NCBI GenBank assembly: GCA_963666365.2
Contig: CAXXNF010000002.1
Location: 1,504,001 to 1,568,000 of the forward strand
Origin: Syntrophales bacterium
GTDB taxonomy: Bacteria; Desulfobacterota; Syntrophia; Syntrophales; UBA2210
Length of the DNA stretch: 64,000 nt
Reading direction: 5' to 3'
This document shows positions 21,001-24,000 of the stretch, one piece after another. The position numbers were made by a program. The number at the start of each line of letters is the position of its first letter. The first letter of the stretch is position 1.

Positions 21001-24000
21001 ACAGTATGTACTCCGCCGACATAAGGAGTTCTTCTATGGTGGTCATCAATCCCCTTTTCAGGAATACCGGCTTCTTCGCTTTTCCCACGCGCTTCAGAAG
21101 CGCAAAATTCTGCGTGTTTCGGGCACCGATTTGAAGAATGTCCGCATATTGCTCAACCACGTCCACTTCGGTGGTGTTCATCACCTCCGTAATGATGGGA
21201 AGTCCCGTTTTATCCCCTGCGTCCCTCAGTATCTTCAGCCCTTCCTCCTCCATGCCCTGGAAACTGTAAGGGGAGGTTCTCGGTTTGTAGGCGCCGCCCC
21301 TGATGATATTGGCGCCCCCTTTTTTTGCAATCACGGCGCTTTCCATCATCTGCTCTTCGCTCTCGATGGAACAGGGTCCGGCAATTACCACAAAGTCGGG
21401 ACCGCCGATGTGGACATCGCCCACGCGAATGATCGTATCACACTCCCTGGACTCACGGCTCGCAAGTTTATAAGGCTTGAGGATCGGAATCACTTTTTCG
21501 ACACCGGCAAGATTCTCGATAAATTTTACCTGCCCGCTGGGTCTGTTGCTGCCAACGGCACCGATAATAGTCCGTTCCACCCCGTGTGAGGGATGCGCAT
21601 GGTACCCTACCGATTGAATCCACTCAATCACCTTGCCCACCTGTTGTTCCGTCGCATTTTTCTTCATGACAATAATCACTTGACCTCTCCTTTCAACGAG
21701 AAAGGCCGTGGCGAATTCTTTTTTCACCACGGCCCAAAAATAAAAAGCCATGGTGCGGATCCTCTCTCGATCCGCCCATGGCCTTGAATTCTATTTTATT
21801 GTGTGTTTCTAACTTCTCCAGGCAAAGGGACAGACCGAGGTATGATAAAAATACCAGTAAAAGCTAAAATAGTTGTCTGCCCTGCAGTTAATGCCCATTC
21901 TCTATCCTTTGACTCACTGTCAATTAGCGGGTGATTCAATCATAAATAATTATATCTGTCAATATAAAAATGGGGACACTTCCCTATTTAATCGTTAGGA
22001 TCGTTAATAACGTTATGAGCGTTTAGATCGTTGGTATCAAAACGTTCTCAACGCTCTGAACACTTTTCATTAAATAGAGGGAAGTGTCCCTATTTTACTT
22101 CATGGAAAGCGATATTCGTCCCCGTGCACGGTCTATACCGGTCACGGTGACTGTGACGTTCTGATTGACCTTGACGACATCATGGGGATGTTTCACAAAT
22201 CTGTCGGCCATCTCGCTGATATGGACGAGGCCGTCGCGATGCACACCGATATCGACAAAGGCGCCGAAGGCCGTTACATTGGTCACCACACCCGGCAGCC
22301 GCATTCCCTGTTCGAGGTCGGAAATATCATTGATGCCTTCTTTGAAATGATACAGGGTGAACTCGCTGCGGGGGTCCCTCCCCGGCTTTGCCAGTTCGGT
22401 CATGATATCGCGCAGCGTCGGCATTCCCACCGAAGCGGTCACATATCGTTCCGGCTGAATCTGCGCTCTCACGTCGGCACGGGCAAGCAGGTCCTCTACG
22501 GTGACGCCGCAGTCCGCCGCCATGGCTTCCACAATAGCATATCGCTCGGGATGGACGGCTGAGGCATCCAGGGGGTTTTCACCGCCTCGAATTCGTAAAA
22601 ATCCTGCCGCCTGCTCGAAGGTCCGGGGACCCATGCCCGAAACGTTCATCAGATCCTTTCGCGAGAGGAAAGGACCTTCGCAATCCCGAAAGGCAACAAT
22701 CGCCGCTGCAAGTCTCTCGGACAACCCCGACACGTACCCGAGAATCTGTCTGCTCGCCGTATTCACATCCACCCCCACCGCATTGACACAACTCACCACG
22801 ACATCATCCAGGGCCGTCTTCAGAAGACGCTGATCCACATCGTGCTGGTACTGGCCCACACCGATTGATTTCGGATCAATTTTTACCAGTTCAGCCAGGG
22901 GATCCATAAGGCGCCTGCCGATTGATACGGCACCACGGACCGTCACATCCTGATCGGGAAACTCCTCCCGCGCTGCTTCCGAGGCCGAGTAGATGGAGGC
23001 ACCGCTTTCGTTTACCATCACGATAACAGGCGGTTTCGCACACTCGATACCCTTCAAAAAGAGCTCCGCCTCGCGTCCCCCTGTACCGTTCCCCACCGCA
23101 ATCGCCTCGACATTGAATTTTTCCACAAGATCCCTCAGGAGAACCGTGGCTTCTTTGACCTTTTTATGCGGTTCCAGGGGATAGATTGTCTCCGTGGCCA
23201 GAAGTTTTCCTTGAGGATCAAGACAGGCCACCTTGCAGCCCGTGCGCAATCCCGGATCAACGGCAAGCACCGCCTTTTGCCCAAGCGGCGGGGCGAGCAA
23301 AAGATTGCGAAGATTTTCGGCAAAGACTTTCACCGCCTCCTCATCGGCCCTGACCTTCGTCTCCAGGCGCATTTCCGTTTCCAGTGAAAGAGAAAGAAGA
23401 CGGCGGTAACTGTCTTTTGCTGCCAGGGCCATCTGACGGGCTGTTTCGCTTTCGCCGCGGACAAACCTTCTTTCCAAAAGTGCCAGGGCATCCTCCTCAC
23501 CGGCAAGAATCCGGAACCGGAGCACACCTTCAGCCGCTCCCCGGCGAATCGCCAGCACGCGATGGGACGGGGCCGCCATGGCAGGTTCCCGCCATTCATA
23601 ATAGTCCCTGAACTTTATCCCCTTTTCTTCCATATCCTTTGCCACGGATGACGTCAGCACTCCCGTGGCGCGGAAGAGTTCGCGGAGCTCCGCCCGAACA
23701 TCCCCGTCTTCGTTGATCCATTCGGCAATGATATCCCGAGCCCCCGCCAGGGCATCATCGGTACTCCCAACCCCCTTCCCGGCATCAACAAAGGAGGAAG
23801 CCATCTCGTGAGGATTCACGGTTTCATATGTAAAGACCGCCTTTGCCAGGGGCTCCAGCCCCCTTTCAAGAGCCGCCATACCCCGGGTCCGACGCTTCGG
23901 TCGGTAAGGCAGGTACAGATCCTCCAGAATCGGGAGCGTCTCTGCGGCTTCTACCTTCCGACGAAGTTCATCGGTAAACGCCCCCTGCTCCTCCAGCGAT

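What a model noticed while it worked through the whole genome (the two positions that open the first line are those of the whole stretch)
21680..21910. Phe/Tyr/Trp triple-sensing ribosome attenuator with tandem terminators ahead of the 14-gene shikimate-phe-trp-tyr supero [...]
A 29-codon leader with a mixed run of Phe, Tyr and Trp codons (g02588, C2:1525809-1525898) precedes DAHP synthase and the whole aro-pheA-trp-tyrA operon (g02587-g02574). Its conserved Val-Cys-Pro codons pair with the 5' arm of the first of two tandem intrinsic terminators, so one attenuator reads all three aromatic tRNAs.
Evidence so far: Leader MGINCRADNYFSFYWYFYHTSVCPFAWRS. Leaders with at least 5 aromatic codons in 9 in 30 of 30 orthologous loci from 19 families sampled. 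VCP segment found in 28; GGUCUGCCC:GGGYRGAYC duplex and one or two terminators align in 27. No real Rfam match; no paper (searches 171, 172, 184, 188, 217).
(Added by a program. Inside this text positions count along the whole contig: contig position 1,504,001 is position 1 of the stretch shown here. "Call 12" and the like, gene names such as g00115 and contig names such as C1 are that model's own, and its searches are not shown. The text may have been shortened before it was handed on; [...] marks where a part breaks off. The agent that wrote the report below was given it as the finding of a first reader that could run no searches.)

Follow-up and report, generated by a model that had tools for sequence, protein, structure and literature searches.

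The report
Three-amino-acid attenuator with relayed twin terminators
A short reading frame rich in Phe, Tyr and Trp codons most likely lets these anaerobic bacteria switch on the shared aromatic amino acid pathway when any of the three runs short, through a chain of RNA pairings that controls two terminators, and the same RNA scaffold sits ahead of several other amino acid operons in the phylum.

Summary
The leader is real. The 29-codon ORF (21898-21809, minus strand) has 8 aromatic codons in 9. A matching leader precedes DAHP synthase in 107 of 109 Syntrophales loci, and 150 of 163 distinct leaders use all three residues. It looks like a classical ribosome-mediated attenuator.

Two first-reader claims need correcting. 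It does not govern 14 genes alone: trpE has its own promoter-like site and Trp-only leader (24 of 24 loci), and the usual unit is aroF-aroC-tyrA. 'VCP' is an RNA constraint, not a peptide motif.

New here: (1) a six-segment relay, in which hairpin A's freed 3' arm pairs with hairpin B's 5' arm, so one antiterminator can disable both terminators; (2) in Syntrophales the single Trp codon tends to be missing where trpD is missing (10 of 12 Trp-less leaders against 5 of 140 with Trp), though not elsewhere in the phylum (0 of 10); (3) the scaffold occurs in 91 of 151 phylum genomes, ahead of three different pathway-entry enzymes and of trp, leu, ilv and transporter genes, with matching codons.

No transcript data were found, and equilibrium folding favours OFF, so the switch must be kinetic. 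Older subscription surveys may already list it.

The parts
21934..21962 (-). Probable sigma70-type promoter (perfect -35 hexamer, 17-nt spacer, weak extended -10)
   Evidence: Read from the sequence; the consensus scan did not list this exact site. A TTGAC[AT] site lies 40-130 nt before the first aromatic codon in 154 of 158 leaders, against 7 of 150 in a control window. In the window it is 91 nt away. Function inferred.
21905..21909 (-). Shine-Dalgarno-like site of the leader ORF
   Evidence: Sequence; inferred.
21809..21898 (-). 29-codon leader ORF
21875..21900 (-). Segment 1 (start-codon region; here also codons 6-8), complementary to segment 2
   Evidence: 79% of cells paired, 9 of 10 pairs with two-sided changes, in 59 leaders. 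Weak in this genome (z +0.3).
21845..21871 (-). Control codons 10-18: 4 Tyr, 3 Phe, 1 Trp, 1 Ser
21821..21839 (-). Segment 2 (antiterminator arm, the 'VCP' codons)
   Evidence: Its core starts 12 or 15 nt after the first base of the last aromatic codon in 136 of 163 leaders.
21746..21783 (-). Hairpin A = segments 3 (21783-21766) and 4 (21761-21746)
   Evidence: -29.9 kcal/mol; outer stem 100% paired in 49 leaders.
21736..21746 (-). U-tract after hairpin A
   Evidence: at least 5 U in 9 nt in 155 of 156 leaders.
21703..21735 (-). Hairpin B = segments 5 (21735-21723) and 6 (21715-21703), with a weak U tail in this genome
   Evidence: U tail in 147 of 156 leaders; hairpin B is absent in L022 and L137.
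21725..21755 (-). Relay helix 4:5 (21755-21746 with 21734-21725, 10 bp)
21684..21694 (-). Shine-Dalgarno site of aroF
   Evidence: Sequence.
14079..21679 (-). aroF (DAHP synthase, type I-beta), aroB, pheA, aroD, aroE, aroA, aroK, aroC: the block directly behind the mixed leader
   Evidence: NCBIfam; order conserved.
13954..13982 (-). Promoter-like site ahead of the trp leader
   Evidence: Read from the sequence; not listed by the scan. TTGAC sites are visible in most trpE upstream regions printed (not counted).
13787..13843 (-). Second leader ORF, 18 residues with three consecutive Trp codons
13687..13764 (-). Tandem hairpins of the trp leader: A (13764-13733) has no U-tract, B (13714-13694) has U7
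8203..13670 (-). trpE, trpG, trpD, trpC, trpF, tyrA
   Evidence: NCBIfam.

Best explanation
A ribosome-mediated transcription attenuator for the shared (chorismate) pathway and the Phe/Tyr branch. With all three aromatic tRNAs charged, the ribosome runs over segment 2 to the stop codon, hairpins 3:4 and 5:6 form, and polymerase meets two terminators in a row. If Phe-, Tyr- or Trp-tRNA is short, the ribosome stalls at codons 10-18 and leaves segment 2 exposed. Segment 2 captures segment 3 as it is made, the freed segment 4 captures segment 5 before segment 6 appears, and neither terminator forms in time. Segment 1 (the start codon) pairing with segment 2 gives a default OFF state without translation. 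The trp genes carry a paralogous Trp-only attenuator behind their own promoter. Shown by sequence comparison: the ORF, codon bias, spacing, complementarity, conservation, second leader. Inferred: transcription, translation, stalling, termination, folding order, and how much the single Trp codon contributes.
For: Aromatic run is in frame and far above base composition. The switch point of a footprint model falls just after the last aromatic codon: P(2:3) is 0.81 up to codon 18, 0.24 at codon 20, 0 from codon 21 (assuming 9 nt covered from the A site). With the ribosome at the stop, 157 of 158 leaders fold OFF. Helices 1:2, 2:3, 3:4, 4:5, 5:6 are 79, 91, 100, 99, 99% paired against 18-51% when slid. 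Relay: own inner arms extend the helix better than foreign ones in 101 of 132 distinct cases although B's inner arm is only 25% identical to A's; A-to-G changes tolerated by the relay occur 14 times, the neighbouring U-to-C change that would break it never, in 49 rows; across paralogues 49 of 70 cores pair fully against 35 +/- 2 permuted; in several leaders only B has a U-tract. Codons match the pathway: F/Y/W before type I-beta and I-alpha DAHP synthases and ADH synthase, Trp before trpE/trpD/trpB2, Leu before leuA/leuB, Val/Leu/Ile before ilvB. In Syntrophales, Trp-less leaders go with missing trpD: 6 of 7 against 3 of 99 and 4 of 5 against 2 of 41.
Against: Equilibrium folding favours OFF even with the ribosome stalled: 117 of 158 leaders, ON in only 8; median gap +7.5 kcal/mol, +15 in the window. 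At full length 5:6 displaces 4:5 in the window, so the relay must be kinetic. Segment 1 lies far from the control codons, and naked RNA of the window prefers 2:3 to 1:2. Only one Trp codon in 136 of 163 leaders. Outside Syntrophales all 10 tested genomes with Trp-less aro leaders hold trpD. Two Syntrophales lineages lost Trp but kept trpD, and 7 genomes lack trpD yet keep Trp. Kin are not independent, and most genomes are incomplete assemblies.
Confidence: 0.85

Rival explanations
1. It is an attenuator, but hairpin B is only a duplicated back-up terminator or a stability/translation element, and the 4:5 complementarity is a by-product of a shared palindromic core.
For: The core is self-complementary, so 4:5 pairing follows from any duplication. 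Within the core only 1 of 8 pairs shows a two-sided change. B is missing in L022 and L137 and weakened in some others. 5:6 beats 4:5 at equilibrium in the window. A's own inner stem is stronger than the relay extension in 84 of 132 cases.
Against: Inner-arm complementarity without similarity to A; the 14-to-0 wobble asymmetry; co-varying cores in paralogues; leaders in which only B has a U-tract, including the window's trp leader. An independent constitutive B would block read-through.
Confidence: 0.25
2. The switch senses only Phe and Tyr; the single Trp codon is neutral or merely fine-tunes, and Trp control is left to the trp leaders.
For: Trp is 164 of 1174 aromatic control codons. Many leaders outside Syntrophales lack it while the genome holds trpD (10 of 10). 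Dedicated Trp leaders exist, some ahead of a DAHP synthase (L267, L268, L290).
Against: Trp is kept in 150 of 163 Syntrophales leaders at varying positions. Its loss coincides with missing trpD in about 6 of 8 separate lineages (tree plus G027). Aminotransferase leaders lack Trp in the run in 8 of 10 cases.
Confidence: 0.2
3. The leader is an arrest peptide sensing a free aromatic amino acid in the ribosome tunnel (TnaC-like, recalled), or the hairpins are sites for a protein or small ligand and the ORF is incidental.
For: The 'VCP' segment and the stem cores are strongly conserved in sequence.
Against: The order of F/Y/W varies freely; segment 2 is read in different frames; its conservation follows from the pairing chain starting at the AUG; the same scaffold carries Leu, Val or Trp runs ahead of matching operons.
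Confidence: 0.05

Closest known systems
Enterobacterial his attenuator (AB, CD, EF versus BC, DE; passages of PMC10989985)
   Same: Six segments, with three hairpins in the OFF state and two in the ON state; leader ORF with a run of control codons.
   Different: In his only EF is described as followed by uridines; here both 3:4 and 5:6 usually carry U-tracts. Three amino acids are sensed, not one. Segment 1 is the start codon. No Rfam His_leader match.
E. coli trpL and pheL attenuators (passages of PMC4615214 and PMC5343134; abstract start of PMC3082878)
   Same: tRNA-sensing leader with antiterminator and terminator; the ribosome masks about 10 nt downstream.
   Different: One amino acid and a terminal branch each. 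In E. coli the shared pathway is run by TyrR/TrpR, here apparently by the leader. No Rfam Trp_leader match.
Multivalent thr (Thr+Ile) and ilvGMEDA (Ile+Leu+Val) attenuators (named as attenuators in PMC1183508; codon content recalled)
   Same: One leader reads several tRNAs for a shared pathway.
   Different: Other amino acids; single terminator (recalled).
uORFC-13-1 motif ahead of aroF in Acholeplasma (passage of PMC8632094)
   Same: uORF plus terminator ahead of DAHP synthase; attenuation proposed, untested.
   Different: Described as coding for at least one Phe; another phylum; 24 representatives; no relay described. Sequence not compared here.
Putative attenuator ahead of the Desulfovibrio vulgaris aroA'-aroB'-pheA-aroF-tyrA-trp supraoperon (passages and Table 7 of PMC1173090); unannotated premature terminators ahead of Dde_3490 and Gmet_0346 (Table S8 of PMC2965389)
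   Same: Same phylum-level group and same pathway-entry position; these may well be members of this family.
   Different: In what I read they are bare structure predictions with no leader peptide, codon content or relay. I did not fetch those loci, so identity is untested.

Membership tests
Ribosome-mediated (classical) transcription attenuator | Short leader ORF with clustered codons for the pathway's end products | tested here: met
Ribosome-mediated (classical) transcription attenuator | Mutually exclusive antiterminator and intrinsic terminator helices, conserved | tested here: met
Ribosome-mediated (classical) transcription attenuator | Antiterminator arm just outside the footprint of a ribosome stalled on the control codons, covered once it passes | tested here: met
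   Spacing; footprint model (footprint assumed).
Ribosome-mediated (classical) transcription attenuator | Segment 1 overlaps the control codons, so the stalled ribosome blocks 1:2 | tested here: not met
   Segment 1 is the start-codon region, 6-12 codons upstream of the run. In the trp leaders the Trp codons look like segment 1 (by eye).
Ribosome-mediated (classical) transcription attenuator | Stalling shifts folding to read-through | tested here: inconclusive
   Holds for growing transcripts, not at equilibrium.
Ribosome-mediated (classical) transcription attenuator | Premature termination in vivo, relieved by starvation and dependent on leader translation | not testable with these tools
   Needs transcript 3'-end mapping and reporter assays.
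Rfam Trp_leader / His_leader / Thr_leader / Leu_leader | Score at or above the family's gathering threshold | tested here: not met
   No real match in the window stretch; 0 matches in 13 loci.
his-type six-segment attenuator (works like) | Second ON-state helix (4:5) that disables the last terminator | tested here: met
   Complementarity and constraint; function not shown.
T-box or metabolite riboswitch | T-box or aptamer motif | tested here: not met
Arrest peptide (TnaC-like) | Conserved peptide sequence in a fixed frame | tested here: not met

The most novel reading that the evidence does not exclude
Desulfobacterota use one homologous six-segment attenuator scaffold with two relayed terminators as a modular regulator of amino acid supply. 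Swapping the codon run retargets it (Phe+Tyr+Trp for the pathway entry whichever enzyme fills it, Phe/Tyr for aminotransferase, Trp, Leu, Val/Ile), and a single Trp codon is a selected third input that is dropped when the Trp branch is lost. This family and its double-terminator relay are not yet described.
Probability: 0.45. Interest if true: 0.78.

Novelty: new variant of a known kind. Interest (0 to 1): 0.62.

Why it matters
Control of the shared aromatic pathway is known mainly through TyrR/TrpR and enzyme feedback. Here a single leader appears to act as an OR gate for all three aromatic tRNAs, in a phylum with little described RNA regulation. The two-terminator relay is a testable way to tighten an attenuator. 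The scaffold is unannotated in Rfam and NCBIfam, and its codon run predicts the substrate of genes behind it (a Phe-rich leader marks an ABC transporter). The loss of one codon with a pathway branch is a rare natural test of what a leader senses.

Tried and rejected
RNA evidence: no RNA holder was listed, and three metatranscriptomes of a related study gave no cover of the leader; this says nothing either way. The stretch matches one DNA contig without differences, which may be its source. Rfam and NCBIfam: no match. 'One attenuator for 14 genes' rejected. 'VCP peptide motif' rejected. U-rich drift rejected. A general rule 'Trp codon lost when trp genes are lost' rejected outside Syntrophales. 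Equilibrium folding did not reproduce the ON state. My parser found two hairpins in only 70 of 105 model hits and missed divergent ones such as the ilvB leader. L129 and L130 have an ORF directly before aroF; I did not look further upstream. L154 was cut on the wrong side and dropped; refetched as L341 it has an F/Y/W leader. Earlier scan findings were not available. Literature searches listed no paper describing this leader; Lopatovskaya 2010, Vitreschak 2004 and Merino 2008 were not read.

Full report
OBSERVATION. The leader ORF is at 21898-21809 on the minus strand, 129 nt ahead of the GTG of a type I-beta DAHP synthase. Codons 10-18 hold 4 Tyr, 3 Phe, 1 Trp and 1 Ser. Of 39,094 short ATG ORFs in the genome only 30 reach 6 aromatic codons in 9, and this one is second, behind a poly-Phe run. 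Two hairpins follow the stop: A (21783-21746, -29.9 kcal/mol, strong U-tract) and B (21735-21703, -23.6, weak U tail). The 14 genes are as stated, and trpBA lies elsewhere. Rfam and NCBIfam know nothing of it.

CONSERVATION. Record titles place close relatives in Syntrophales. Of 122 aroF loci, 10 duplicates and 3 cut-off loci were dropped; 107 of the remaining 109 have the leader. With regions from further genomes the set is 163 distinct leaders: 150 use Phe, Tyr and Trp, 13 only Phe and Tyr; Trp occurs once in 136 and twice in 14. They average 7.2 aromatic codons in 9, against 2.6 for shuffled bases and 2.1 in other frames. A TTGAC[AT] site lies upstream in 154 of 158, against 7 of 150 in a control window. 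The order of the three residues varies freely, and segment 2 is read in another frame in up to 13 leaders (clear cases L002, L011, L152), so 'VCP' reflects RNA pairing.

OPERON. The ~410-nt gap before trpE holds a promoter-like site, an 18-residue leader with three Trp codons and two hairpins. All 24 trpE loci with enough upstream DNA (of 30 fetched) have a Trp leader, and the model built from aro leaders hits all 24, so the two leaders are paralogues. In 47 of 51 other loci tyrA follows aroC directly. The 14-gene order is shared with G001 and G019; in G005 and G007 tyrA lies about 2 kb after trpF, and in G014 and G017 the aro block stands apart from the trp genes. The mixed leader thus heads the shared pathway plus pheA and usually tyrA. 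Read-through from it would still meet the Trp leader.

RNA ANATOMY. Six segments form a chain: 1 (start codon) pairs with 2, 2 with 3, 3 with 4, 4 with 5, 5 with 6. Paired cells: 1:2 79% with two-sided changes at 9 of 10 pairs (59 rows); 2:3 91% and 4:5 99% (49 rows); 3:4 100% and 5:6 99%; slid controls give 18-51%. The fixed AUG in segment 1 would explain why a CCAUGG core recurs in all arms (inference). The core of segment 2 starts 12 or 15 nt after the first base of the last aromatic codon in 136 of 163 leaders. With 9 nt covered from the A site, P(2:3) is 0.81 up to codon 18, 0.24 at codon 20 and 0 from codon 21; a passage of PMC4615214 gives about 10 nt for the E. coli trp leader.

THE RELAY. 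One antiterminator cannot by itself open two terminators, but freed segment 4 is complementary to segment 5. Because the core is palindromic, I tested beyond it. Inner arms of the same leader extend the helix better than foreign ones in 101 of 132 distinct cases, although B's inner arm is only 25% identical to A's (158 of 163 leaders parsed). In B's core the A-to-G change that the relay tolerates as a G-U pair occurs 14 times in 49 rows; the neighbouring U-to-C change that would break it does not occur. Among 70 of 105 model hits that parsed as two hairpins, 49 cores pair fully against 35 +/- 2 after permutation. In several leaders, including the window's trp leader, only B has a U-tract. Against: only 1 of 8 core pairs shows a two-sided change, kin inflate these statistics, B is lost in L022 and L137, and equilibrium favours OFF. 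With the ribosome stalled, 117 of 158 leaders fold OFF and 8 ON, the median gap is +7.5 kcal/mol and the window's is +15. In the window 4:5 forms with P=1.0 while segment 6 is unmade but loses to 5:6 at full length. The switch therefore has to be kinetic, which I could not simulate.

IS TRP SENSED? In the class sample 6 of 7 Trp-less leaders lie in genomes without trpD, against 3 of 99 with Trp. trpC is also missing in those six and in the three Trp-bearing ones. A second set gave 4 of 5 against 2 of 41. A quick tree needs 7 changes for the 12 Trp-less rows; with G027, whose four sampled congeners keep both Trp and trpD, that is about 8 events, 6 with trpD missing. Against: G007 and the G034/G138 lineage lost Trp but keep trpD; 7 genomes lack trpD yet keep Trp (two of them, G003 and G008, outside the counts above); most genomes are incomplete; G004 was scored on a 39% paralogue; and outside the order all 10 tested genomes with Trp-less aro leaders hold trpD. 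The Trp input looks selected in Syntrophales and optional elsewhere.

SPREAD. The model hits 91 of 151 phylum genomes at E <= 0.01, E-values being rough. I examined 25 of the best loci outside the order and 60 further hits. Forty from 20 families are aromatic leaders ahead of the pathway's first enzyme: 19 type I-beta DAHP synthases, 2 type I-alpha, 1 unassigned and 18 ADH synthases; 24 use all three residues (hand tally). Ten precede an aminotransferase, 8 of them without Trp in the run. Others carry Trp runs before trpE, trpD or trpB2, Leu before leuA or leuB, and Val/Ile/Leu before ilvB. In the window's own genome the scaffold also heads ilvB, leuA and an ABC-transporter binding protein with a Phe-rich leader, and Trp leaders precede trpBA and trpB2. 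That the leader stays in place when the entry enzyme is replaced argues that it serves the pathway.

WHAT IS KNOWN. It works like a classical attenuator. The six-segment logic is that of the enterobacterial his leader (AB, CD, EF versus BC, DE; passages of PMC10989985), and multivalent leaders exist for thr and ilv (codon content recalled). It is not a member of the Rfam leader families. A Phe uORF ahead of aroF was proposed for Acholeplasma (passage of PMC8632094). A putative attenuator is tabulated for the D. vulgaris aro-trp supraoperon (passages of PMC1173090). Table S8 of PMC2965389 lists unannotated terminators before Dde_3490 and Gmet_0346, and none of its 36 Syntrophus rows is a DAHP synthase (15 of 20 'deoxyheptonate' rows seen). 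Passages of PMC11109978, PMC2659441, PMC5343134, PMC3896937 and PMC1183508 and the abstract of PMC11857589 showed no such leader. Ten searches listed no description. However, PMC4833913 credits Lopatovskaya 2010 with 'chains of RNA helices', and I recall that survey covering delta-proteobacteria; I could not read it, nor the supplements of the two Breaker-lab surveys (not opened), so prior mention is quite possible.

VERDICT. A real, widely conserved and apparently unannotated attenuator family: attenuator 0.85, relay about 0.7, functional Trp input in Syntrophales about 0.75. It is a new variant of a known kind with no transcript or genetic test yet. Interest 0.62.

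Noticed in passing
window 13982-13687 (-): Second attenuator with its own promoter-like site ahead of trpE; a short repeated element (about 13915-13845, copies at a few other places in the genome) lies between promoter and leader.
   Followed up: yes
window 8203-9057 (-); L334-L337, L339: tyrA lies behind the trp genes, hence behind the Trp-only leader, in family f1, while it follows aroC in 47 of 51 other loci. A promoter-like site may lie at about 9110-9082.
   Followed up: partly
window 1507-1618, 9051-9161, 14021-14105, 21973-22089, 24520: Pairs of an inverted ~13-bp motif 70-110 bp apart in intergenic gaps, 54 exact copies in the genome; REP- or MITE-like. Two pairs flank the trp block.
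   Followed up: partly
G000:C2:920375-920506 (L233); also L270, L275: Phe-rich leader on the same scaffold ahead of a 'branched-chain' ABC-transporter binding protein; suggests a Phe or aromatic amino acid transporter.
   Followed up: partly
G000:C2:2033946-2034074 (L234) and C1:68053-68177 (L236): Val/Leu leader with tandem hairpins before ilvB (different core sequence, relay complementarity kept, by eye); Leu leader with one hairpin before leuA.
   Followed up: partly
G000:C2:516140-516660 and C1:920820-921340: Trp leaders ahead of trpBA (tandem hairpins with another core) and trpB2 (one hairpin); not found by the model.
   Followed up: partly
L267, L268, L290: Trp-only leaders ahead of a DAHP synthase in families f60; possibly a Trp-dedicated isoenzyme.
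   Followed up: no
L278, L295, L304, L281, L297, L303: The scaffold also precedes genes without an obvious biosynthetic role (acyl-CoA dehydrogenase with an Ile-rich leader, nitronate monooxygenase family with a Leu-rich leader, several unassigned).
   Followed up: no
L129, L130: Two Smithella-like loci have a protein-coding gene directly before aroF and no leader within 600 nt.
   Followed up: no
L051: trp leader in which segment 2 and the 5' arm of hairpin A appear deleted.
   Followed up: no
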